Shown piece by piece: positions 3 to 51,122 of a stretch of 64,000 nt of DNA. The stretch's first letter is position 1, and every line of letters begins with the position of its first letter. The stretch is taken from the IMG/VR virus record IMGVR_UViG_3300029305_011823; one strand, written 5' to 3'. The notes beneath the pieces were generated by a model, which worked only from the letters and a program-made list of their open reading frames with translations, was not told where the DNA came from and did no database searches. The translations under genes and the position numbers were made by a program. Source of the stretch: a virus. Taxonomy: Duplodnaviria; Caudoviricetes.

Positions 3-734
3 TATGTTAATATTGATAGCCATATATTATCATGCTACTATTCATTTGCAAATTGTAGAGTACTTAAACGTATAAATACTAGAAATTGGAATACTGAAAA
101 TGTAGAAGATATGTATTGTATGTTCCATGGTTGTAATTCATTAATTTCATTAGATCTAAATAGCTTTGATACTAGAAATGTAACTGATATGGCACATATG
201 TTCCAAAGCTGTCAAACATTAACTACGATAGATTTAAGTAACTTTGATACTAGTAATGTAATTGATATGAATCATATGTTCCATAATTGCCATAAATTAA
301 CTTCATTAGATCTAAGTAATTGGGATACTAGTAATGTAACTGATATGAGTAATATGTTTAGATCTATGGTATCAATTACAACTTTAGATATAAGTAATTT
401 TAATATGGAAAATATTATAAATTGCGATAGTATGATTTTATGGAATAATGCTAATGTTATTAATATGAGTAATTGTAAGACAGAAGATATTAATACAATA
501 ATAGGACAATTACGAAAACATGATGACGGTATAATTAGAAAACTTTATATTTTAAATAATAAAGAACATGACTTAATAGATAAAGCTACTTTAGATACTA
601 AGAATTGGAAAGCTGTAATCTATGGTGGTAATATTAAAGCTGTTCATATACCAGAAGGAATATTTAACTCACTTGGATTAGGAAATGTGTTACTTAAACA
701 TATTCATATAGGTGAAAGATTCCTAGAAGATTAA
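3..734 (+). CDS. BspA-type (DUF285-like) leucine-rich repeat protein, 5'-truncated by the window edge
   Basis: Repeats of LDLSNFDTSNVTDMxxMF; the frame is open from position 3, upstream of the called ATG at 111. Confidence 0.85.
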   Translation, partial: YVNIDSHILSCYYSFANCRVLKRINTRNWNTENVEDMYCMFHGCNSLISLDLNSFDTRNVTDMAHMFQSCQTLTTIDLSNFDTSNVIDMNHMFHNCHKLTSLDLSNWDTSNVTDMSNMFRSMVSITTLDISNFNMENIINCDSMILWNNANVINMSNCKTEDINTIIGQLRKHDDGIIRKLYILNNKEHDLIDKATLDTKNWKAVIYGGNIKAVHIPEGIFNSLGLGNVLLKHIHIGERFLED

Positions 735-27960: not shown

Positions 27961-30861
27961 TTATTCTACATGTGTAAGATAATCTAATCTAGTTGTACAT
28001 CCATTCATTGTTAAGATATGGATTTTCATCATTCTATTAGCATATGCTTCTGCTAATCCATGTTTAGCCATATCATACATGAACTCTTTTGTATCTTCAC
28101 ACATGTTATGTTCTTTATCCATTAATTCTACTATTGTTTTCTTAACTATTCCGTCAACATCTTTAATAACTTCTAAAGATAATTTATCTTCAAATTCTTC
28201 TACTAATTTAATTTCTTTTTCTGTTAATCCTAATCTCATATTATCTCTTGTTTTCTTAATATTGTATTTAGCTATACGTCTTTCTGAATAACATATTCCT
28301 TTTGATTTCATACTTAAGATAGCATCTTGCATGTTTGTTATTTCTTCAGGATTATCCATGTTAACTAACATGTCATATCTTTGTTCTATTGTGATTACTT
28401 TATATTGAACTCTATTAAATATTTCTGGTTCAAATGTGTCTATATTACTATGCTTATTAACTAATCTAGCTTTTATTCTAGGTTTTATTAATCTTGGATG
28501 ACTTATACAACCTTCTTCTTTAACCATTGAACCGTTATATTTGAATATATCAAATACACTATCTGGTAATATACTATTATATTCCATATAATATTTATTT
28601 AAGATATATTCTTTGATGTCAGTTATTCCTGTGAAATCAGAAGTTTGTATTATGTTTAAGATATTTAATTCTGTATTAGACATTATAGCTTCTAAATCAT
28701 AATAATAAACTATCTTGTTGTCTTGTAACATATCTTCTAATCTATATCCGTTATCTATTAATTCGTCTTTTAATTCAGCTTTAGCTTCTCTTAATAGTTT
28801 TGTCATATGTTCACTTTCTTCTGCAACTGTTAAATAATAATTTGGATCATCTATATCAACATCTTTATTATCTGGTTTCATTAGTTCATAATATTTATCT
28901 AAAGCTTTGTAATAGTTGTTTAATTCATTACCTAGGTTCATTATAACGTTAGGTCTAGCTGGTTTCATATCATCTTCGAATCTGTTTATAATTTGAGCAA
29001 CTACTGGATTTCTGTTTTCAACTGTTCCATATAAATCTTCTGGAATTCTAACTTCTTCATCTATTCTATAAATTGCTTGGAACTCTGATTCAACTTGATC
29101 CATATCATAATCAAATTTGATTAATAGGTGTCTGTATAATGGGAATGCAAATTCACTTGCTTTCCAACCACCTAATATATTCTTAGCATTTACTCTAGGA
29201 CTATAATCTAAATCTATAAAATCACCATTTAGATATGTTCTATATACATCACCTGTTGTATATTCTTCTTCATCTAATACTGTAGGATATCTTGAAGTTA
29301 TTAATTTTGTTAAAGCATCTTCTAAATCATTATATTTTTCTTCAAGTTCTTTTTCTGCTTCATATATTAAATAATCAGCATCTAATTTTTCTTTTTCTTC
29401 TTGTGCTTTTTGTTCTTCAGCTTTTTCTTCAGCTACTAATTTATCATTTATATTTAATAAGTTCATTATATGATCTAATGAGAATTCACTACTCATGTTA
29501 TCTAATTCAGGATCTTCTGCATTAAACATGTTTGTGAAATCATTTGAGAAATCAGCACTGAAGAAATCATCTAAAGATGTTTCTATTACTTCGTTTTCAC
29601 CATTTTGAGATTGTCTATCTATTATCTTTAATTCTGATTCATATCCTCTTACAGAGAATTCACCAAACTCATCATAACAATCTGGAAGATCTTCAACTTC
29701 TTCTTTCTCTTGACTCTCTTCAAACTCTCCTTTTAGTTCTTCATATATTTTATTATATCTAGCATTAGCAAACTTATTGAAATCTTTTATATGACTATCA
29801 ACATTGTACATATTCATTTCTAAAGATGCTAATACGAATGGATATAACATTTCGTCATACTCATCTTTTTCATTTATTATTTCATCTTTAAGTTCATAAT
29901 AATCATCTATAGTTATTCTATCAGCTTTAATCATTTCAGTTATATTGAAGAACATATCTCTTGCTTTATTTATTTTATTATCTATGTCTTCTGGCATTTT
30001 AAATTCTTCTTTCTTTTCTTCCTCTATCTCAACTTTCTCTAATACATCTACATTTATTGTACCATTTTCATCAAATTTGATATATCTATCATTCTCAAGA
30101 TTTTTATTTATGTTCTTTATTATCTCACCATATCCAAATGTATTTCTTAAAGTTGTATATTTAACTTTATTATTGCACTCAGTTTTTGTACATTTTAATT
30201 CTGAATAATCTGATGTATATTCTAATGAACTTCCACATATAGGACATCTTGCAACTTCTTTCCATTCATCGTTTGCTAATTGATATAAATACCCATAATC
30301 TAGAACTACTATATCACCATTCATTCTTTTACCCCAGTTTCCGTAGTTCTTTTCACTTGTCCCCATATCTCCTAAGATATAGAATTTTCTTTCATCATCT
30401 ACTAAAGATTGATCTTCTGCTAATGTACTTAATATTCTTTTTATATAAAATTGACTATCTAAGAATTCTTCTTTATCCATAACTGTAACATATTCACTAA
30501 CTAATATTATTCCATTAGTTTCATATGCTTGAGCTAAATATTTACTTTTATATTTAGCTTGTGCTAATTCATTCATATTATCTATAAATGCTAAATAGTT
30601 ATAAGCTACTTTAATTATATGGTTATCAAGAAGACAAACAAATCTGTTTGTCCCCTCACCAATTCTTCTGTAATCTTTTCTACCTCCAAACTCTTCTGTA
30701 AATATTTTGTCAAATCTTATTGTCTTTTCAACTATACTAATATAATCATTTGAATATATATCATAAACTTTTCTCATAAATTCTTCTGAGAAATTCTTTT
30801 TGATTAAACTTTCAATTTTAACCTCATCAACTTTAACTATTTTTGTTTTCATATATATCAT
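27961..30861 (-). CDS. Protein-kinase-like domain + Zn ribbon + long acidic tail
   Basis: Gly loop IGEGTNR, IIKVA lysine, DNMNE, GDM..GNWG catalytic loop, VLDYG; CPIC...CTKTEC; the true start may be the ATG at 30852. Confidence 0.75.
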   Translation of the reverse strand: MIYMKTKIVKVDEVKIESLIKKNFSEEFMRKVYDIYSNDYISIVEKTIRFDKIFTEEFGGRKDYRRIGEGTNRFVCLLDNHIIKVAYNYLAFIDNMNELAQAKYKSKYLAQAYETNGIILVSEYVTVMDKEEFLDSQFYIKRILSTLAEDQSLVDDERKFYILGDMGTSEKNYGNWGKRMNGDIVVLDYGYLYQLANDEWKEVARCPICGSSLEYTSDYSELKCTKTECNNKVKYTTLRNTFGYGEIIKNINKNLENDRYIKFDENGTINVDVLEKVEIEEEKKEEFKMPEDIDNKINKARDMFFNITEMIKADRITIDDYYELKDEIINEKDEYDEMLYPFVLASLEMNMYNVDSHIKDFNKFANARYNKIYEELKGEFEESQEKEEVEDLPDCYDEFGEFSVRGYESELKIIDRQSQNGENEVIETSLDDFFSADFSNDFTNMFNAEDPELDNMSSEFSLDHIMNLLNINDKLVAEEKAEEQKAQEEKEKLDADYLIYEAEKELEEKYNDLEDALTKLITSRYPTVLDEEEYTTGDVYRTYLNGDFIDLDYSPRVNAKNILGGWKASEFAFPLYRHLLIKFDYDMDQVESEFQAIYRIDEEVRIPEDLYGTVENRNPVVAQIINRFEDDMKPARPNVIMNLGNELNNYYKALDKYYELMKPDNKDVDIDDPNYYLTVAEESEHMTKLLREAKAELKDELIDNGYRLEDMLQDNKIVYYYDLEAIMSNTELNILNIIQTSDFTGITDIKEYILNKYYMEYNSILPDSVFDIFKYNGSMVKEEGCISHPRLIKPRIKARLVNKHSNIDTFEPEIFNRVQYKVITIEQRYDMLVNMDNPEEITNMQDAILSMKSKGICYSERRIAKYNIKKTRDNMRLGLTEKEIKLVEEFEDKLSLEVIKDVDGIVKKTIVELMDKEHNMCEDTKEFMYDMAKHGLAEAYANRMMKIHILTMNGCTTRLDYLTHVE

Positions 30862-32792
30862 TCTCCCTTTCTACCATTTTTATTATTTTCTATAGCTTTC
30901 TCTATCATAGCTTTTGTGATCATAGGTTTACTTGTTTGCTTAGCTTCATTTACGAAATCATCTATATTAGTTCTTTCACTGAACATATCATTTGCTTTAG
31001 AATCAGAACTTAATTCATAAATTTTCTCAGCTAATTTATCATTATTCTTCATGTAATTTAATAATTGACTAGCTTCATTTGGATTTAATTCAAAACCATC
31101 TAAACCTCTATTTAATAATTGATATCCTGTTGCATCACCTATATCTATTGTAGATCCATCAACTCTATTAACATTGTCTGCATTTGAGTTCATGTTTTGT
31201 AAACTTTTCTTAGCTGCATCTGCTATTTCTCTTACATATGCTGATATTTTATTATCCCCTTTTCTCATTCCTGTTCTTTGATCTCTCGCTTCACCAAAGC
31301 TTACATGTTTAGAATCTTTATATAAACTTTCAGCTACTGAGTTCATTGATAATATTTCATCTTCTCTACGTTTAAATCCTTCATTAAATACATAATCTGC
31401 TGCATATTTAACTAAACCTTTAACTGTTGTCTTATCTATTGGATTTTCCATATCATATCCATTGATACCTATTAATTGATATTCTAGATATTTCTCATAA
31501 GCTTCTCTTGATTCTTTATTGTCTTTCATTATACTATCAACTACACTAGAATCATTCTTATACTCTTCCATAAGTTTATCATATTGGAATTGATTTATTA
31601 CTGAAGATATTGTTAAATCATCTATGTCTGTAACATTTACAAAACTAGATTCATAATCTTCTTGATCTAACATCATGTCACTCTTAATATCTTCTAATAT
31701 TCTATAACCTTCAAGTTGTTTATCTGGATCTTTAGATGCGATTAGAGAATTTGCATATTGCTCATAAGATGTGAATCTATCTGTATGTGTGAAACCATTA
31801 ATGTTATCTTTATCTGTTTTATAGAACATTTGTAGGTCTTCTGGTAGGTCTTTGAATTTAGGTGGTGTGCTTTCATACATTGTGAAATCATATCCATCAA
31901 CTTCTATTGCATTTATTTCTTCTTCATATTCTTCCCATATACGTTTACCCATATCTTTTACCATTGCTAATTCGTTTAAGTTCATACCTCTATCTAATTT
32001 TATATTACGCATTGTCTTCTTAAATCTAGGTTTAACTGTTGGATAATACTCATAAGCTCCAAACATTCCACCCATATCTTTAGCATGGAAGAATTCTTCT
32101 TTACCACCATACTTATCAAACAATGCTTGTTTATATCTTTCAATTAAATCTTTTGCATCTTCATAATCTTCATAACGTTCATATATAGAACGTCCTAAAC
32201 CATTTTTACCTCTATCTTTTAATCTCTTAACAAATTCAAAATAATCTTCTTTAGTTTCTATTAAACCTGGAATTGTTACTCCAACATCTTCTCTTAAATC
32301 ATCTGGAATATCATTATCTTTCATATGATATGTTGAACCATTATATGCATTAACATAAACATTATTCATTATATCTTCAAAAGATGGTTTTGTAAATTCG
32401 TTTACTAATTCACATTCTTCTTTCTCTCTTTCTAATAATGCTTTATATTTATCTAATGCTTTCTTATTAAATCCTGTTTGCATAACTGCTTTTGGTTTAC
32501 TACTAACTCTGTTATTATCTATACATTCTTCTATAAATTCTATTGCATGATGTTTTTCCATATATCCGTATGATTGATTTAGATCAGAATTCTTAATCGG
32601 ATTCTTTTCTTCATCATTTACTAATGTTATCTTAAATTTTGGATGCATTTCTTCTATAACATCTAAATGATAACTAAGATAATCATCATCAGATTTAAAT
32701 TCATTATATAATTGATTTAATTTACTTCTATCCATTGGTTTTCTAATTCTTTCTATTGTATAATTATTAGAATTTTTATCAACATTTGCCAT
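30858..32792 (-). CDS. Hypothetical protein, overlapping the kinase gene start
   Basis: 644 aa; stop overlaps the kinase start region; early-type promoter at 32829..32860. Confidence 0.7.
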   Translation of the reverse strand: MANVDKNSNNYTIERIRKPMDRSKLNQLYNEFKSDDDYLSYHLDVIEEMHPKFKITLVNDEEKNPIKNSDLNQSYGYMEKHHAIEFIEECIDNNRVSSKPKAVMQTGFNKKALDKYKALLEREKEECELVNEFTKPSFEDIMNNVYVNAYNGSTYHMKDNDIPDDLREDVGVTIPGLIETKEDYFEFVKRLKDRGKNGLGRSIYERYEDYEDAKDLIERYKQALFDKYGGKEEFFHAKDMGGMFGAYEYYPTVKPRFKKTMRNIKLDRGMNLNELAMVKDMGKRIWEEYEEEINAIEVDGYDFTMYESTPPKFKDLPEDLQMFYKTDKDNINGFTHTDRFTSYEQYANSLIASKDPDKQLEGYRILEDIKSDMMLDQEDYESSFVNVTDIDDLTISSVINQFQYDKLMEEYKNDSSVVDSIMKDNKESREAYEKYLEYQLIGINGYDMENPIDKTTVKGLVKYAADYVFNEGFKRREDEILSMNSVAESLYKDSKHVSFGEARDQRTGMRKGDNKISAYVREIADAAKKSLQNMNSNADNVNRVDGSTIDIGDATGYQLLNRGLDGFELNPNEASQLLNYMKNNDKLAEKIYELSSDSKANDMFSERTNIDDFVNEAKQTSKPMITKAMIEKAIENNKNGRKGE

Positions 32793-32917
32793 ATTGAATA
32801 CCTCCCTATTTTATTTTTCTTCATTACTATAATATATAATTGAAATAGTACCTTTTTACGGTGGGCAAAAAATAATATGAAAAGGATCATACAATCCTCT
32901 CCATATTATTTAGTTGT

Positions 32918-34752: not shown

Positions 34753-34830
34753 ATAAATACCTCCTAAAATTTATTATTCATTTACATAATATATAATTGA
34801 TTTGATACCTTTTTACACAAACATTACTAT

Positions 34831-34985
34831 AAGTAGTCATAGGACTACGCTAAGATCTCTCTGAGATCATTAGAATTTTACCTCCAATAAAATTTGATAA
34901 AATATATTTTTTATTTAGTTTTCAAGTACGGAAAAATAGATGTATATAGTGATATGACTTCACTATATACATCTATTTATCTTTT
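34831..34985 (+). ncRNA. Candidate sRNA A with an anti-SD loop
   Basis: AACA-N6-TA at 34820..34831, two 5' hairpins, AATTTTA-CCTCCAA-TAAAATT hairpin, terminator at 34934..34978; no ORF on this strand. Confidence 0.55.
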
Positions 34986-35255
34986 GTTTAGTCTCACATG
35001 CGTATATATCTTATCCACATTGATATAAAAACGTTGGCTTTTTCTACACCAACTCTACACACGATCGACAACATCGCTAATCTCTGCAAAAGCATACGAT
35101 GCATTATGTTATCAGCTGTATAACATAACTAGTTGATGGATTGAATTATCTGGCTCCCTTGTGGTGGAAATCATCTGTACCTGTGGCTACCTAAGGCTTT
35201 CGAACAGTGTTGCAGACACTGAACTGGCACGCTTCTCTGTCCCTTCCATCTCCCT
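34932..35255 (-). ncRNA. Candidate ~320-nt structured RNA
   Basis: AACA-N6-TA at 35255..35266, GC-elevated sequence with many hairpins, no long ORF, ends at a terminator. Confidence 0.6.
34934..34978. terminator. Bidirectional terminator between two convergent non-coding units
   Basis: 19-bp perfect inverted repeat AAATAGATGTATATAGTGA / TCACTATATACATCTATTT. Confidence 0.8.
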
Positions 35256-35281
35256 AATTAGTTGTTATACTATATGAAATT

Positions 35282-37420: not shown

Positions 37421-37654
37421 TTAGAATCTACTTATTTTTTCTATTTGATCTACATCTATATGATTATCTAATTGACTTACATTAGATCTTTTTATCTGTT
37501 CTATTTTTTCTACTATGACATATATACTTTCTAAAACTTTATCTCTTTCATCTGGTGAAAGATTCATTGTATCTAATAATTCATATAATTTTTGATTAGA
37601 AGATTCTACTGAATTCACTATATCAGCTATTAAATATAAAGTTGATTTTTTCAT
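37421..37654 (-). CDS. Hypothetical protein
   Basis: Start moved to MKKST (37654) after GAGGAGG; early-type promoter at 37696..37727. Confidence 0.6.
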   Translation of the reverse strand: MKKSTLYLIADIVNSVESSNQKLYELLDTMNLSPDERDKVLESIYVIVEKIEQIKRSNVSQLDNHIDVDQIEKISRF

Positions 37655-40700: not shown

Positions 40701-43700
40701 ACTTGTATTTCCTGACATATTTAATGTTACTATATTATAACTGTTAGTAACGTCGAATCCAGCTATTGATTTACAACCAGATAAGTTTACTTCTGTAACA
40801 TTTTCACAGTTAGTTACTATGAAGTTTTGTATTGTTGAGTTAGCAACGTCAACAACTGCTATTCTGTTACATCTATTAAGTTCAAATTTATTAATATTTT
40901 CACAGTTTGTTATTTTTATGTCATCTAGGAATTCTGCACCGTCTATAGATACGTTTTTAATACTACTACTAGTTAAGTTTATAGAGTTAAGAACTGTATC
41001 TGTTGGGAACATTACCCCTGTAAATTTAGTGTAAGATAAATCAACTGTTTTTAAGTTAACACAGTTCGATAAATCTAGAGTTTGTGATTCTGTTGCTGTA
41101 CCTAATCTGTATGAGTTAGTACAGTTAAGATGTCTTAAGTATTTATTGTTACCTATTTTTAGACCTTCCATACGGTTTGAATATGAAACGTCTAGTTCAA
41201 GTAATTTAAGTGCTTTTTCTATTCTGGCTTCAGTTAAGTTAAGTGTTTGTAATCTATTAATTTGCTTAATATTGCCTGCTCCAGTTATACCCATCTCTTT
41301 ATTTATACCTTTTATAGGGAATGAGAATAATGCACCTTCATACTCTATTCCAGTATCAGGGTCTTTATATCTAGATTCAGGTCCAACATATCCAGTAACT
41401 TTACCGTCAGCTCCAGAACCGATAGTTATTGTTACATACTGTGGAGAATAAACACTTACACCAACATAACAACGTAAAGTTGTTCCTTCCCCTTGTCCGT
41501 AAGCAGCATCTGAACGTAATCCTATATAACTATTTAAAGTATCAGGTTGTGCTGCTGATTCTTCGTATCCAAATACTGTGTCTAAGAATATTAATCTCTC
41601 TTTTAAGAATTTTTTATATTTTTGTGCTCTATTACCATGAAGCATTTGTAAGTAAGTAGAGTCGGATGCTGTTGTTTGAGATAAATATTTAGATGCAGCA
41701 TCTTTATTGAAATAAATTTTTCCTATCTTGTCATCAGTGTCAGCTGAAATAGCTTTGAATATATTATCAACGTCATATACTTTAGCATTTCTTAATGTAG
41801 TATATGCTTTTTTTATTTCTTCTTTAAATTCAGTTCCGAATGCATTCCATAATTTACTAGTTCTAGTATTATAGTTCATATATCTTAAATCTGTTGTAGT
41901 ATCTGTATAACTATATCCTATAAAGTTTTTATCCCCATCCAATAAAGTTGGAGATAATGAAGGTATTATTTCTGAGTCAACACGGATTATCTCAGTACCT
42001 GTATTTGATAATCCCATTTGTGTATCCATATCGTATGGTCTAGGGTAGAATTTAACTCCATCCCATGTATCCCACATACTATTTTTCATTCTGTTACTTT
42101 CATTATTCATAAATTACTGACCATATATTAATATGGCGGGAAAGGTTCTTCTTAAATCAGTCTGGTTACTGATGACCTCTCCTCTCTAGTTTCATTGTTA
42201 GATTATATCTAGAGATCAGACTGTTGCATACTTGAAAGTTCAAGCCTTACTCGCTCAGTCGTTGTTGGTGATTATAATCATATCATTTCCCAATGCAATT
42301 GTACCAATTCTCCATTTATCAATATTTCTCCATACCAATCATGACCTTTTATCAATTCATGATTGAGATGCTTTGTAAAGGTTTTTTTATTAAATTCTAT
42401 ACCAAACTCCTCTTTCATACACTCTAAAGCTTTTCGTTTACTTGGAAATACCCTATCAAGTTCAATACAACGTACATGTGTACCTTGTGTATAACTACTT
42501 TTAGAATATTGTATTTCTATAGATTCTTTGCTTCTATTAGGTTCCTTACGATTTCTACAAGCTTCTTTCATTCGTGCTTTTTGTTCAGGAGTTCTTTTCT
42601 TTCCAATGTTCTTTAGTCTTCTCTTCTCAATAGTTTCTTGTGATTGTTTCATAGAAAATCCACTAGTTCCTTCACCACCCCATGTGCAATTAGTCAAATA
42701 ATTATCATTACTTTTATCATTGAAACCATGAATATCTATACTATAACCTTCATTAAATACCAAATCATGTATAGTTTGCATTTCTAGTTCCAACGCCTCA
42801 CGCTCAGTTAAATTATTATATATTATCTCAACTACACAATCAACAGAATTTATTATATTCATAAAATGATCATTTCTACTATCCAATCTAAGATATCTAT
42901 TATTTTTACCTTTACCTATATAAAATATACTTCCGTTATCTAAACGAATGTATTGATATACGTAATAACATTTTTCCATTCACATCACTCCATTAGTTTA
43001 ATAATAGAGAATTGTTTTATCAATTATAATCTTCCAAGGCGTTGTCCTTCTCAGGAGTTTCGCCGTATATCAGAGTAAGTTTTTATACTGAGGCATAAAC
43101 TTTACCACAGTTATCTACTTGTGTAAATACGTGCATTTGTAGATAATAAGCTATCATGTATGTTAAATCAAGATGTTTTTCTAAGTCGTCCTTAAATGTA
43201 CCATTATCTATTGAGTTACTTACCCAGTTAACTAATTCAATCATTGGTTTATAAGTAGCTTCTTCGTCATCTTCACAATAACTATATCTAGCTTCAAAGT
43301 CTGACATTATATAATCAGTTTCACTATAGTCAGCAGAGAATTCTTCGAATGTCATATATTCTTCTATAGTTCCATCATTTATTCCTGCTTTAAATTGATC
43401 CATAGTACATTTTTCAGAAGTAAGACCATATTTTTCTAAATATTCTTTATAAGAGTCTTCTAAATAATAATTATAAACGTTTACTATAGATTCAGATAAT
43501 TTATAGAAACATCCAGCTGTGTCACTTGCATTGGCAGTTGCTTCATATGAAATACAACTATTTTTACCATTACCGATTAAATCACCGATTTCATCATATA
43601 AATCACATTCGAATCCTAATTCTTTACCCTCTTTATCTATATTAAACATAAATGAACCTACTAATATATTTTCAGCTGGTTTACCATCAGCATCTACTCC

Positions 43701-46700
43701 ACCTTCATTATAGTAAACTATACAAGGGAAACCGTCTATAGCATCATGATAACCATCTCTCTTAGCAGGTGACATTCCTCCTAAAGCATCTATAACTTGA
43801 TTATAGAATCTTGCAGTAGGCGTATTGTTTTTGTGTGATTGTTCCATGTACATTCTGTTACTTTCATTATTCATAAATTACTGACCATATATTAATATGG
43901 CGGGAATGGATCTTCTTTAGGTCGTTATTTCAGACCGCCCATTCCTCTCTAGTTTCATTGTTAGATTATATCTAGAGATCAGACTGTTGCATCATTAATC
44001 ATAAATGCCTTTTCGCTCAGTCGTTGTTGGTGTAATTTAAACGTTTTTATTTTCAAAATGTAGATATAAAAGTTCACCTGTTATTATATTTCTACCCGCA
44101 TGTTTTCGTTTTCCTCTACAAACTGCAGATATTGATGCATGTGAACAATTTATATTATATTCTTCTAGTAATATTTTTTCAGCTTCTCTATATGAATTAA
44201 AAGTTCTATTCAACTCTACACAATAAACTTCATTTCTATTAGGGCTAGCTAGACGTATTTTTTCTTTATGCTCTTCAGTATATGTTTTTCCATAATGTGG
44301 TGATAACTCACCTTTTTTACCGTACATACCGTTTTTCTCACCAAATAACGAACATTTTTTACGTTCTTCTTCGGTATGTGTGTAACCACTCACACCTTCA
44401 CCACCCCATGTTTGATTTACAAGATGATTTTCATTTTTAGTGTTATAACCATTTATTTCAATACTATAACCTTCATTAAACACTAAATCATGAATAGTCT
44501 TAACTTCTAATTCAAGAGCTTCATTTTCAGTTAAATTATCATATAATATTTCAATTTTATAGTCTATACTATTTATTATGTTTTTAAAATGTTTATTCCT
44601 ACCTGTATGATGTTCATAACATCTATTACCAGTACCTTTACCTATATAAAAATAATTATTTTTGTCTAATCTTACATAAGCATAAATGTAAAATCTATTA
44701 TCCATATTTATCACCTTCATTTTAAAACGTTTAAATAACTTCCAAGGCGTTGTCCTTCTCAGGAGTTTCGCCGTATATCAGAAAAGGTTTTTATAGTGAG
44801 ACTATACTTAATCACACTTTAATGTATATGTACTATCTTTAACCCAGTCGTCTTCCATACCTGGAGGAACGAATTTTAATTTAGATGTTTTTCCTTCATC
44901 CACCCAAGCTTTAATCTTATAGTTTTTAACAGGGTATTGTAGTGATGATGTACCTTGTAAATATACATCCATGTTATCATAAACTATTATGTTACCAGCA
45001 CCATCGTTATACTCCATTACACAATCAACGAATGTTGATTTAGATTGTTTTTTATCCTTGATTGAATGTAATGTTGCAAATGTTGCATTGTTTTCATATC
45101 CATCACCTATTTTTCTTTTAAATACTATAGTAGGTAATGTAGCTAAGTCTGTATTATTCTTATCGTTTTCAAGTTGTTGTTCTTCTGAATCGTATATATG
45201 TGATACATAGTTTTGTAAAACTTCTGATGATTTTAAGAAACTATTGTAAATACGTATGAATTTTATTTCACATTCACCGAAATTAGTAAATGAAACATTT
45301 CCTGCAGCATCTATCATTCTACATGCATTAAGTACTAAAGGATAAGCTTCTTTAGCACCGTCTAAGAAGTTTTCTTTACTTTCATCTTCATTTATAGTAG
45401 TACATGAACACATAACACCATTTATATATACACGTAGTGTATATGTAGGGTTAACGTCTTCTATCATATTTTGACCAACTTTTTCAAATGTTCTTATGTC
45501 TTTATCTACTACAAGTGTTATATGAACCCATTCATCTTCCATAAATCCAAGACTATTTACTTGAGCATTTGACGCTATAGCCATAGTATCATATGTTATA
45601 TTAATTCCTGGTTCATTTAATGGGTTTTCCATATTATTATTGAATTTTGTACATGTCATTACACGTGCATTCAATTCCCCTATATTTCTAGTACGTATAG
45701 CAGTTTCTATTGTTATACCTTTTTGTCCACCCATTTTAAATATTGAGAATGGGCTATAAGGTTTAGCTTCACCATTAACCATTTCAACAAGTTCACCATA
45801 TGATTCACCAGTGAATTTAAGCATCATTTCCCCATCTTCACTATCAGGTATTGATTCATCTACATGTTTCCATCCATTTGAACTGTAATTTAGTCCATGT
45901 AATAATATTCTGTATTTATCACCTGTGTGTCTAGATGAGTTACCCCAAATATTAGGACTACCGTCATTGTTCCCTTTAGTATTAGCGTCAAAGTAAGCTA
46001 TTAAGTTTGCGTTATCGATAAAAGGAACTTTTTGGTAAAGTGATTCAACAACTTCCATCATAACTTCAACAGGATCTGATTCAACACCACCATCGACAGT
46101 ATAACCTTTAATAATATATTTATATGTACCAGCTTCTAATTTACCAACTGACCAATAGTTAGTAACATTAACTTTTGCAGATATACCAGTATTACTAGTT
46201 TCTGCAACTAACTCTAAGTGTCCATTAACGTCTTTATACATTTGACCTTTCATTACAAAATAGTCTGCAATTCTACTGACTATTTTAAATGGTATTGATA
46301 TATACATGTTAGTATCATATTGTATACCTTTAGACTCATCTAATATAGCTATCTCTCCAGCTTTAAGAACTCTTATGTCATATGATAATTCATGAGATTT
46401 AAATGTACCTTCAGTTGTATCGGATACTGAACTTCCAGTATATGCTTGTGCTGTAATAGTATATAAACCTGCTTTATTTATTACAGGTGATTTCCATATA
46501 GTAGATAAGAATGTCCCTTCTAAAGCAAAACTATCATCATATACAGTTTCACCCGTTCCATTATTAACTAATTTAATTCTCATTTTCATACTTTGACTAG
46601 CATCTGCTAAACTAGCCATGTAAGGGAATTCTATTATATCCCCTTCTTCATATATAGCAGTTAATAATGTTTGTTCAAATGTACTTGTTAATTTCAATCC

Positions 46701-47417: not shown

Positions 47418-47483
47418 TTTTATTTTCAACTCCTTCTAAAAATAAATTATATTTATTCATTACAAAATTGTTTCTCCTAATAA

Positions 47484-47603
47484 ATATAAAGATTGGAGTA
47501 TACCCCGTACTTAAACGAAGTATACTCCAATCAAACCATGGTATTGTCCGTCCTCGTCAATTCGAGGAGAGATGATATATATGTTAAACAACAATAACAA
47601 CTT
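47484..47603 (-). ncRNA. Candidate sRNA B, complementary to the kinase gene start
   Basis: AACA-N6-TA at 47603..47614, hairpin TCCTCG/CGAGGA, 17-bp terminator stem (47491..47532) whose G.U pairs form only on the minus strand. Confidence 0.55.
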
Positions 47604-47617
47604 ACCATATTGTTATA

Positions 47618-48442
47618 TTATTTTAATTTTATATAATCACCACAAATAAATGCTTGTTTTCCTTTATATATAACACCAAACCAATTGTTAAGACAATATT
47701 TAACTGTAACAACTTCTCCTTTTTTATATTGACCAAGGATTTTTTTATATTCTGCAGTTCCAGGTCTTCCTGCTCTAACATTTAATGCTGATGCAGTTAT
47801 AACTGCTTTTTTATTATAAGTTCCATTTTTAAACTTACCATCGGCATTTTTATGTGGATCTACAGGTTCTTTCGGTTTAGTTACTTCAACAACTGGTGCT
47901 GGAGTTGCTTCTATTTTAGCAATTATAGATTTTAAAGTTACTGCATATTTTTTATCCGTAGCCCATGTTCCAGATAAACCTTCTACTGTAGGACACTTAC
48001 CATATAAATAGGTAAAATGTCTTGGATCTAATGTTGTACCATTAGCTTTATATTTATCATTTGGATAATTTTTAGTTTCAGGTGAATACTTAGGACAATT
48101 CTTAGCTCCTGCATATAATCCAAGATGATCAGCATGAGCTTGAATTCCATCAGCCCATGATTTAAATCTCATATGTGCGTTAGCTTCATAATCCCCTCCA
48201 CCTTTTGTAGTTTTTAATCCACATGTATTATGGAATGAAGCATTTAACACTCCACCAAAATTAAAATATCCCGTCTCACAACAAACTTGTGCTAACATAA
48301 CAACAGGATTAATCCCATTACCTTCTGCAGCTTTCCATATTATCGGTAAATTCTCTAATAACAATTTATTTGCAGTTTTTACCGATTTTACCCAAGCTTC
48401 TGCTTGTGCATATGTTACTGTAGCCTTTCCTAATATGTTCAT
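47618..48442 (-). CDS. Endolysin: GH73 glucosaminidase-like domain + SH3b
   Basis: AQVCCETGY, HNTCGLK, WATDKKY; C-terminal ALNVRAG...GQYKKGEVV..WFGV. Confidence 0.85.
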   Translation of the reverse strand: MNILGKATVTYAQAEAWVKSVKTANKLLLENLPIIWKAAEGNGINPVVMLAQVCCETGYFNFGGVLNASFHNTCGLKTTKGGGDYEANAHMRFKSWADGIQAHADHLGLYAGAKNCPKYSPETKNYPNDKYKANGTTLDPRHFTYLYGKCPTVEGLSGTWATDKKYAVTLKSIIAKIEATPAPVVEVTKPKEPVDPHKNADGKFKNGTYNKKAVITASALNVRAGRPGTAEYKKILGQYKKGEVVTVKYCLNNWFGVIYKGKQAFICGDYIKLK

Positions 48443-48998: not shown

Positions 48999-51122
48999 TT
49001 ATATTATTATGAAATTTATTTCTCTAGCATCAGCATTTACACTATCAAGTTTAACTGTAACTTCATCTCCTACCCTATAAGCAATAATGTGTGTTTCTTC
49101 AGTTCCTACTCCTTGACCTATCAACTCATGTGTATTTTCATTATACTCATAACGGTCTTCTGTTAAAGATTCAATAGAAACTAATCCCTCTACTGTATCA
49201 GGTAATTCAACAAAGAATCCAAAATGTGTTACGCTTGATATTATACCTTTAAAATCTTGACCTATTTTGTCTTCCATGTATATACACTTATAATATTTAT
49301 CTATATCTCTTTCTGCAACTTCTGCTTTTCTTTCCATTACAGAAGATTGTTCTGAAGCTTTTAATACTATGTCTTTAAGTTTATTTTGTCTATTACTATT
49401 TAATCCTCCTTTATTTATAAATTCTTTTATTATTCTATGAATTTGTAAATCAGGATATCTTCTTATAGGTGATGTAAAATGACAATAATACTCAGCAGCT
49501 AATCCAAAATGCCCACTACAATCTGGAGAATATTTAGCTTGTTTTAAAGAACGTAATATTAACGTACTTATAGCTTTCTCTTCTTTCTTACCTTCTACAG
49601 ATTTTATTATTTTTTGTATTTGTTTTGGATGAACTTCTTCTGTATCACCTTTTATTAATAAATCATAATTGTGTATAAATTTATTTAAAGCTTCTATTTT
49701 AGATGAACTAGGAGTTTCATGTATTCTATATACAAAAGGAATTCCTATCCAATAGAAATATTCAGCAACTGTTTCATTAGCTACTAACATAAATTCTTCA
49801 ATTATTTTATTAGCAATTCTTCTTTCATACGGTTCTATATTATAAGGTCTTCCATTTTCATCTAAATGTATATATGGTTCAGGGAAATTAAAATCTAATG
49901 CTCCTCTTCTTTCCCTTTTCTTCATTAATATTTTAGCCAATTCTTCAGCTTTAAATAACATATCAGCTAATTCTGGATTCTCTTCTTCATGTATGTGTTC
50001 TAATACATCTGATACGTTTGTATAAACCAATCTACCTTTAGATCTTATTACAGTTTCTTCTATGCTAGAGTTAACAACATTACCCTTACGGTCTATTTCC
50101 ATAAATACTGATAATGTCAATTTATCTTCATTAGGATTTAAGCTACAAACCCCATTGGATAATTGTTTCGGAAGCATAGGAATAACTTTATCTACAAGAT
50201 ATACAGATGTAGCTCTTTTTAATGCTTCTTTATCTAAATTAGATTTTTCTTTAACATAATGTGTAACATCTGCTATATGAACACCTAACATAAAATTACC
50301 ATTATCAAGCAATTTTACTTGTATAGCGTCATCTAAATCTTTTGCATCAGCACCGTCCATTGTAACTATGAATTCATCTCTTAAATCTTTTCTTCTTTCA
50401 TATTCTTCTTCAGGTATAGGTACTGCTACATGATTTGCATTATCTAAAACTTTTTGAGGAAATTCTAAAGGTAAATCATGTTCTCTTATAATAGATTCAA
50501 TCTCAATTCCTCTATTACCTTTATATCCTAAAACTTCTACTATTTTCCCTTCAGGTTTTTTATCGTCTTTAGCCCATTGTGTTATTTCCACAACAACAAC
50601 ATCATCTTCCATTGCTCCATTAAAATGTTTTTCTTGTATATAAACATCTGTACGTAATTCATTTCCCCTAGGAATTACAAATGCAAAATGTTCATGAGGT
50701 TTGAATGTACCAACAATTTGTGTTTTCACTCTCTTAATTACATTAATTATCTTACCTTCTGCTCTTCTACCACCTGATGCCTCTCTTGTTATTTCTGCTA
50801 AGACTCTATCTCCATGCATAGCTCCATTAACATCTTTAGATGGTATATACAAATCTCTTTCGTCTTCTTTATCAGATTCAACAAATCCAAATCCCTTTCT
50901 ATGAGATATAAATTTTCCTACGAAAATTCCTGCTTGATTTGGTGATATTATTCTGTCTTTTTTAGTTACTATGATATACATTTCATCTAATAATTCTCTC
51001 ATTACATTCATAACTTCTTGAGATTTTTCTAGACCTAATGCTATACCTATTTCTGTTAATGTCATTGGTTTGTAATTATCGTCGTTTATAAAACTAACAA
51101 TTCTTTTTTTAATATCATCCAT
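48999..51122 (-). CDS. rnr: Ribonuclease R
   Basis: HRKGFGFV cold-shock domain, DGADAKDLDDA, HFTSPIRRYPDL, C-terminal S1 domain. Confidence 0.95.
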   Translation of the reverse strand: MDDIKKRIVSFINDDNYKPMTLTEIGIALGLEKSQEVMNVMRELLDEMYIIVTKKDRIISPNQAGIFVGKFISHRKGFGFVESDKEDERDLYIPSKDVNGAMHGDRVLAEITREASGGRRAEGKIINVIKRVKTQIVGTFKPHEHFAFVIPRGNELRTDVYIQEKHFNGAMEDDVVVVEITQWAKDDKKPEGKIVEVLGYKGNRGIEIESIIREHDLPLEFPQKVLDNANHVAVPIPEEEYERRKDLRDEFIVTMDGADAKDLDDAIQVKLLDNGNFMLGVHIADVTHYVKEKSNLDKEALKRATSVYLVDKVIPMLPKQLSNGVCSLNPNEDKLTLSVFMEIDRKGNVVNSSIEETVIRSKGRLVYTNVSDVLEHIHEEENPELADMLFKAEELAKILMKKRERRGALDFNFPEPYIHLDENGRPYNIEPYERRIANKIIEEFMLVANETVAEYFYWIGIPFVYRIHETPSSSKIEALNKFIHNYDLLIKGDTEEVHPKQIQKIIKSVEGKKEEKAISTLILRSLKQAKYSPDCSGHFGLAAEYYCHFTSPIRRYPDLQIHRIIKEFINKGGLNSNRQNKLKDIVLKASEQSSVMERKAEVAERDIDKYYKCIYMEDKIGQDFKGIISSVTHFGFFVELPDTVEGLVSIESLTEDRYEYNENTHELIGQGVGTEETHIIAYRVGDEVTVKLDSVNADAREINFIII

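What the first reader, a model, noticed from the sequence alone, without database searches (positions are those of the whole stretch)
47484..47614. sRNA B is extensively complementary to the translation start of the phage kinase gene 17 kb away
Seen: the complement of the sRNA (47566..47596, GGAGAGATGATATATATGTTAAACAACAATA) aligns with the kinase mRNA start (30866..30838, GGAGA-ATGATATATATG-AAAACAAAAATA) at 27 of 31 columns. This includes a 12-nt unbroken run over both candidate ATGs, plus the SD. Inference: a later-made trans-acting antisense RNA shuts off an early, probably toxic kinase. Caveat: the sequence is AT-rich, and the + strand could instead encode a 22-25 aa peptide (MLNNNNNLPYCYIILILYNHHK).
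Basis: partly seen in the sequence, partly recalled or inferred. Interest (0 to 1): 0.75.

Follow-up and report, generated by a model that had tools for sequence, protein, structure and literature searches.

The report
Jumbo-phage small RNA, swappable seed
A giant bacterial virus carries a probably real small RNA gene just behind its cell-bursting enzyme gene. The RNA's front end mirrors ribosome landing sites, but that front end is swapped between sister viruses and the proposed kinase target is only one of several similarly good matches.

Summary
The 27-of-31 match to the kinase start is real, and the target is a kinase-fold gene in an early-type operon. The RNA gene is well supported: an AR9-type late promoter (motif found 8 times between genes, once within), a conserved hairpin, and a terminator shared with the endolysin mRNA, kept in five allele types among sister phages. 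The kinase target is not established. It ranks first among window start sites by identity and by accessibility-corrected energy, and second by raw energy. But any ribosome-site-shaped sequence of these phages finds an equally good partner in 11% (identity) to roughly half (energy) of trials. No sister phage keeps the pairing: its own kinase ranks 203rd to 504th of 588. The seed is a swappable module: absent in some alleles, best matching a different early gene in another. The opposite-strand peptide is unlikely. Best reading: an accessory late 3'-UTR sRNA with a lineage-specific anti-ribosome-site seed; the kinase as a real target is about 25%. No expression data were obtainable. The scan has noted this locus in another genome, and similar anti-RBS late sRNAs in several other jumbo phages.

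The parts
47603..47614 (-). AR9-type late promoter (AACA-N6-TA); last A = predicted +1 at 47603
   Evidence: AACAAT-N4-TA occurs 8x intergenic vs 1x coding in the window, p=7e-9; invariant in 8 aligned alleles; consensus from PMC5312081
47486..47603 (-). Predicted sRNA B, about 117 nt
   Evidence: Own promoter and terminator; z=-5.85 mostly due to the terminator; no Rfam match; transcript not observed
47566..47603 (-). Variable 5' seed: G/U-rich tract, anti-AUG, anti-spacer, anti-SD
   Evidence: Prefers start regions over mid-gene windows beyond all 25 shuffles; differs or is absent in sister alleles
47547..47572 (-). Conserved hairpin with A(A/G)UUGA loop; its 5' arm supplies the anti-SD
   Evidence: Kept in window, L001, L145, L008; one two-sided and two one-sided pair changes
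47535..47542 (.). ACCATGGT palindrome, kept in L001/L145, replaced by another palindrome in L008
47479..47532 (-). 18-bp intrinsic terminator with U-rich tail; also ends the endolysin mRNA
   Evidence: G-U pairs only on the minus strand; one two-sided change
47461..47472 (-). Separate late promoter of the downstream large gene, so sRNA B is not its leader
47618..48442 (-). Endolysin (glucosaminidase + SH3) directly upstream of the sRNA
   Evidence: Pfam PF01832, PF08239
47581..47649 (+). 22-codon opposite-strand ORF, judged not a gene
   Evidence: No + strand promoter of either class; length 22/13/17 aa in three alleles, no SD or no ATG in others
30838..30867 (-). Kinase start region, the proposed target; overlaps the stop codon of the upstream 644-aa gene
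27961..30852 (-). 963-aa protein with N-terminal protein-kinase-like domain plus zinc ribbon
   Evidence: Model pLDDT 92; all top Foldseek hits are kinase-fold proteins, E 2.5e-4, TM 0.33-0.39; no Pfam or PHROG kinase hit
32829..32842 (-). Early-type promoter motif heading the two-gene unit that contains the kinase
   Evidence: One of 7 copies, all upstream of gene starts; early class is inferred by analogy with AR9
58341..58371 (-). Rival target: start region of the 356-aa ORF that follows the tandem-repeat RNA
   Evidence: -31.1 kcal/mol, rank 1 by duplex energy, rank 2 after accessibility correction

Best explanation
An accessory small RNA gene inserted between the endolysin stop codon and the lysis-operon terminator of an AR9-like jumbo phage. 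Late in infection the phage non-virion RNA polymerase starts at 47603 and stops at the shared terminator, giving a ~117-nt RNA (signals shown; transcript inferred). Its 3' scaffold (hairpin, terminator) is conserved; its 5' module is exchanged between sister phages (shown). In this allele the 5' module is the complement of a phage-type ribosome-binding and start region (shown). It most likely nucleates through the open anti-AUG/spacer stretch, opens the anti-SD stem and blocks ribosome loading on one or a few mRNAs (inferred). The target set is lineage-specific; the kinase, the 356-aa ORF and genes outside the window are candidates, the kinase at about 25%.
For: Promoter enrichment and invariance. 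Terminator, minus-strand G-U polarity and two compensatory changes among four alleles. Three homologous seeds reach anti-SD complementarity by different sequences next to CAU; window and L014 seeds prefer start regions beyond all shuffles. Each of these two seeds has a standout match in its own genome: window to kinase (22 vs 16.5), L014 to a 76-aa early gene (22.5 vs 15; rank 1/588 by energy), and each binds its own genome's copy better than orthologous copies. Two other late units in the window (34831, 58704) carry conserved CCUC seeds in two sister genomes.
Against: L001/L145 alleles lack the seed, and several sisters lack the RNA altogether. The L008 and L015 seeds show no clear start-site preference (7/25 and 2/25 shuffles). 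Covariation is weak with four sequences (34/500 shuffles reach it). No target is shared between alleles. Only about 70 start regions, from 64 kb plus ~8 kb of a ~324-kb genome, were scored, and no host start regions by energy.
Confidence: 0.5

Rival explanations
1. Dedicated silencer of the early kinase: the RNA evolved in this lineage to shut off kinase translation late in infection.
For: Kinase is the best Watson-Crick match in 128 kb and rank 1 after accessibility correction (-12.9 vs -9.9). The seed binds its own kinase start (-27.6) better than eight orthologous kinase starts (-11.4 to -21.9). T7 kinase is toxic and is switched off early (PMC13645617), so a brake is plausible.
Against: 11-50% of decoy start sites find an equal partner. 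Cognate kinase ranks 420, 203 and 504 of 588 for the L014, L015 and L001 alleles. The genome with the 87%-identical kinase (L120) already has a similar start region (-21.9) but no matching seed. The kinase start overlaps the upstream stop codon.
Confidence: 0.2
2. The working parts are the conserved hairpin and terminator (protein binding, or stability of the endolysin 3' UTR); the start-site-like segment is a relic of an inverted gene start or drift.
For: Hairpin, promoter and terminator are what is conserved; seedless alleles persist with both. The window's anti-SD is simply that hairpin's 5' arm, present also in seedless alleles.
Against: Anti-SD plus anti-AUG geometry is rebuilt with different sequences in three alleles; the L014 seed matches 13 of 14 coding bases of one own-genome gene beyond the generic idiom.
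Confidence: 0.2
3. The + strand encodes a small peptide and the minus-strand RNA is its cis-antisense (type I toxin-antitoxin-like).
For: Strong SD (-10.6) sequestered in a + strand hairpin; frame relative to the promoter kept in window, L014 and L008.
Against: No + strand promoter of either class upstream; length 22/13/17 aa; the shared residues are dictated by the antisense of the promoter; variants at one codon give P, L or S; no ORF in L015/L020 and no SD in L001/L145; hydrophobic stretch only ~11 aa.
Confidence: 0.06
4. The U-rich 5' end mimics the uracil-containing template strand of late promoters and acts as a 6S-like decoy of the phage non-virion RNA polymerase.
For: AR9 nvRNAP reads 3'-UUGU-N6-AU-5' in single-stranded template and needs U (PMC9209446); UGUU repeats lie at the RNA's 5' end and in other late units.
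Against: The RNA lacks the full motif spacing; binding of RNA by this enzyme is not reported in the passages read; seedless alleles lack the repeats.
Confidence: 0.04

Closest known systems
Type I 3'-UTR sRNAs, e.g. Salmonella DapZ (PMC8383071)
   Same: Own promoter immediately behind a coding sequence, terminator shared with the mRNA, G/U-rich seed, presumed repression of distant mRNAs by base pairing.
   Different: Phage-encoded and read by a phage RNA polymerase; seed covers SD and AUG; seed module is exchanged or lost between close relatives; no sequence homology claimed; chaperone dependence unknown.
c4 antisense RNA of phages P1/P7 (Rfam RF01695; PMC12197685)
   Same: Phage-encoded structured RNA that pairs with the ribosome-binding region of another phage mRNA; seed differences between related phages.
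   Different: No Rfam C4 match; c4 serves immunity of temperate phages and has a proven, co-varying target; here the class is late, the phage AR9-like, and no target is conserved.
Late transcription units of Bacillus jumbo phage AR9 (PMC5312081)
   Same: AACA-(6N)-TA/G promoter with the last base as start site; multi-subunit RNA polymerase genes in the window.
   Different: That study reports cis-antisense transcripts; the term search found no mention of small or noncoding RNAs. No match of this element or of the kinase to GenBank phages.
T7 protein kinase gp0.7 (PMC13645617), for the proposed target
   Same: Phage protein with N-terminal kinase fold; atlas features near T7-kinase, APH and Kinase-PolyVal clusters at 0.88-0.90.
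   Different: No sequence-level family hit; 963 aa with zinc ribbon and long acidic tail; T7 kinase is switched off by autophosphorylation, not by RNA.

Membership tests
Type I 3'-UTR-derived sRNA (DapZ-like) | Own promoter within or just after the coding sequence | tested here: met
   Promoter motif 3 nt after the endolysin stop; enriched and invariant
Type I 3'-UTR-derived sRNA (DapZ-like) | Terminator shared with the upstream mRNA | tested here: met
   Only terminator between endolysin and next promoter; RNA-less sisters keep only a terminator there
Type I 3'-UTR-derived sRNA (DapZ-like) | Independent transcript detected | not testable with these tools
Trans-acting antisense sRNA | Accessible seed complementary to a start region | tested here: inconclusive
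   Anti-AUG/spacer partly open, anti-SD mostly paired; start-site preference real in 2 of 5 alleles
Trans-acting antisense sRNA | Seed and target conserved or co-varying (kinase) | tested here: not met
   Cognate kinase ranks 420, 203, 504 of 588 in three sister genomes
Trans-acting antisense sRNA | Repression shown experimentally | not testable with these tools
   Needs reporter or toeprint
c4 antisense RNA (RF01695) | Match to the covariance model | tested here: not met
   No hit at E<=5 in window or E<=10 in L008; uninformative because controls were blank
Type I toxin-antitoxin | Conserved hydrophobic peptide with its own promoter opposite the RNA | tested here: not met
Protein-kinase-like superfamily (target gene) | Kinase fold with Lys, Glu, catalytic Asp/Asn and DxG motifs | tested here: met
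   Invariant K80, D161, N168, D184 in 100 homologues; fold matches

The most novel reading that the evidence does not exclude
AR9-like jumbo phages keep a cassette of late small RNAs whose start-site-blocking seeds are swapped by recombination, retargeting them between lineages: here onto an early kinase, in a sister onto a 76-aa early gene. That would be an RNA-based, rapidly reprogrammed early-to-late switch in lytic phages.
Probability: 0.2. Interest if true: 0.75.

Novelty: new variant of a known kind. Interest (0 to 1): 0.4.

Why it matters
A 2024 review states that the roles of non-coding RNAs in lytic phages remain to be elucidated (PMC10884466). A late, modular anti-ribosome-site RNA would give a testable mechanism for switching off early genes in phages that use their own polymerases. 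The result also carries a caution for the scan: in these genomes start regions resemble each other so much that two readers of the same RNA named different targets (kinase, nrdJ), and neither stands on complementarity alone.

Tried and rejected
Rfam: no relevant match. tRNA/tmRNA: none. Own whole genome not held, so ranking covers the window plus ~8 kb of a sister contig only. Perfect host target: two exact patterns for the seed complement found nothing in GTDB genomes; this excludes only gap-free matches. Hairpin motif in viral contigs: only the known relative, the rest chance. More distant relatives (kinase ~60%) lack the promoter-plus-5'-end pattern. General early-gene preference: significant for the L014 seed (p 1e-6 on first genes), weak for the window seed (p 0.27 first genes, 0.002 all; operon classes crude), none for L008/L015. 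First shallow fold of the kinase was unusable (pLDDT 47). RF01695 genome search uninformative.

Full report
Context. The window is from an AT-rich (29% GC) AR9-like jumbo phage: it encodes multi-subunit RNA polymerase subunits and two promoter classes. AACAAT-N4-TA occurs 8 times in 4.65 kb of intergenic DNA and once in 59 kb of coding DNA (p=7e-9) and fits the AR9 late consensus AACA-(6N)-TA/G, whose last base is the start site (PMC5312081). A second motif, CAATTATATATTAT, occurs 7 times upstream of genes and is taken as the early class by analogy (inference).

Observation. The alignment is as reported: 27 of 31 columns, 12-nt run. The target is kinase-like: no Pfam or PHROG kinase hit, but a model from 100 homologues (pLDDT 92) matches only kinase-fold structures at the top, with invariant Lys, Asp and Asn at the expected motifs. 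It is the second gene after an early-type promoter at 32842, and its first ATG overlaps the upstream stop codon.

The RNA gene. On the minus strand, 3 nt after the endolysin stop, lie a late promoter (47614-47603), about 70 nt without an ORF, an 18-bp terminator (47532-47491) and the next gene's own promoter (47472). Sister phages, reached through the endolysin, show five allele types at this place with invariant promoter, first bases and terminator core. Four alleles share a hairpin; across hairpin and terminator 95.5% of cells pair, with two two-sided changes, which is suggestive only (34/500 shuffles). G-U pairs occur on the minus strand (2-3 per allele, against 0-1 for the plus strand). 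Other sisters (L019, L113, L150) have only a terminator and L018 lacks the promoter, so the RNA is accessory. No Rfam family matches. No transcript evidence could be obtained.

The seed. The 5' module differs among alleles. Window, L014/L118 and L008 carry a G/U-rich tract, then CAU, then three different anti-SD sequences. L001/L145 carry a hairpin instead, and L015/L020 a short anti-SD tract without CAU. L008 has the same endolysin protein as the window but another allele, so the cassette changes fast. In the window allele the anti-SD is the 5' arm of the conserved hairpin and is mostly paired, while the anti-AUG/spacer is partly open. Window and L014 seeds prefer start regions over mid-gene windows beyond all 25 shuffles; L008, L015 and L001 do not clearly (7, 2 and 1 of 25).

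Is the kinase the target? For: best Watson-Crick match in 128 kb; rank 1 of 58 after accessibility correction (-12.9, next -9.9); the seed binds its own kinase start better than eight orthologous ones. Against: rank 2 by duplex energy behind the 356-aa ORF at 57288 (-31.1 vs -27.6), and rank 13 of 588 pooled start regions, most of the better ones from other genomes. With real start regions as decoys, the mean best partner in the window is -27.4, and 11% reach the identity score at fair length (1% if trimmed after the fact). An unrelated locus carries nearly the same start sequence (L028). In the three sisters where RNA and kinase could be paired the cognate kinase ranks 420, 203 and 504 of 588, and the L014 RNA pairs better with foreign kinases than with its own. 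The L014 seed instead matches a 76-aa early gene of its own genome best of all 588 (-32.7), including non-generic coding bases. So the seed is start-site-shaped with several plausible partners, and the kinase pairing, if used, is lineage-specific.

The peptide alternative. The + strand ORF has a strong SD but no promoter of either class, is 22, 13 or 17 codons in three alleles, owes its shared residues to the antisense of the promoter, varies non-synonymously in the promoter spacer, and is missing in other alleles. I consider it unlikely.

Mechanism. Shown: signals, conservation, modular seed, complementarity. Inferred: late transcription, toehold binding through the open stretch, stem opening, blocked initiation. 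Two other late units in the window (34831, 58704) have conserved CCUC seeds, and for the first the top start region is the same orthologue in the window and G001, which makes an antisense role for this class plausible. These are my own computations; the similar earlier notes of the scan are not counted as support.

Comparison. The layout equals a type I 3'-UTR sRNA such as DapZ (PMC8383071), and the presumed action resembles c4 of P1/P7 (PMC12197685), without sequence membership in either. I found no paper describing late anti-RBS sRNAs in jumbo phages, within the limits of the library.

Verdict. Observation confirmed; interpretation partly supported. Real late sRNA gene about 0.85; acts by blocking start regions about 0.55; kinase among its real targets about 0.25. 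New variant of a known kind; interest 0.4.

Noticed in passing
window 43875-44720 and 42111-42979 (-): Two group-I-intron-like elements, each with a homing-endonuclease-like ORF, split a late gene that is one 2516-2536-aa ORF in L118, L145 and L150; conserved core motifs at 44014/43979/43885 and 42252/42216/42121. Rfam did not report them.
   Followed up: partly
window 34820-34985 (+) and 58693-58807 (+): Two more stand-alone late units with CCUC seeds, conserved in G001 and G004; the first ranks the same orthologous start region first in window (15401 gene) and G001, the second ranks the RNA polymerase subunit gene 54653 first or second.
   Followed up: partly
window 57288-58666 (-): Tandem-repeat RNA, terminator, then a 356-aa ORF; the ORF family recurs after repeat arrays in G001 (33666) and three times in G004, with different repeats. 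Its start region is also the top raw-energy match of sRNA B.
   Followed up: partly
L014:19687-19917; window orthologue 37421-37654 (-): 76-78-aa gene under an early-type promoter; best match of the L014/L118 allele of the RNA (rank 1 of 588).
   Followed up: partly
window 34934-35266 (-): GC-rich ~330-nt late unit without ORF; the counterparts in G001 and G004 share only the ends.
   Followed up: no
window 57040-57199 (-): Late unit whose RNA contains near-complements of its own promoter; a family with several copies in G001 and G004, some with perfect convergent promoters.
   Followed up: no
window 48999-51122 (-): Full-length RNase R two genes upstream of the endolysin, conserved in most sisters examined; a candidate for turnover of these RNAs.
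   Followed up: no
window 60-69 (-) and 47507-47516 (-); L008:2545-2559: The 10-mer forming the terminator apex recurs once more in the window and twice in the L008 allele; meaning unknown, may be chance or a module duplication.
   Followed up: no
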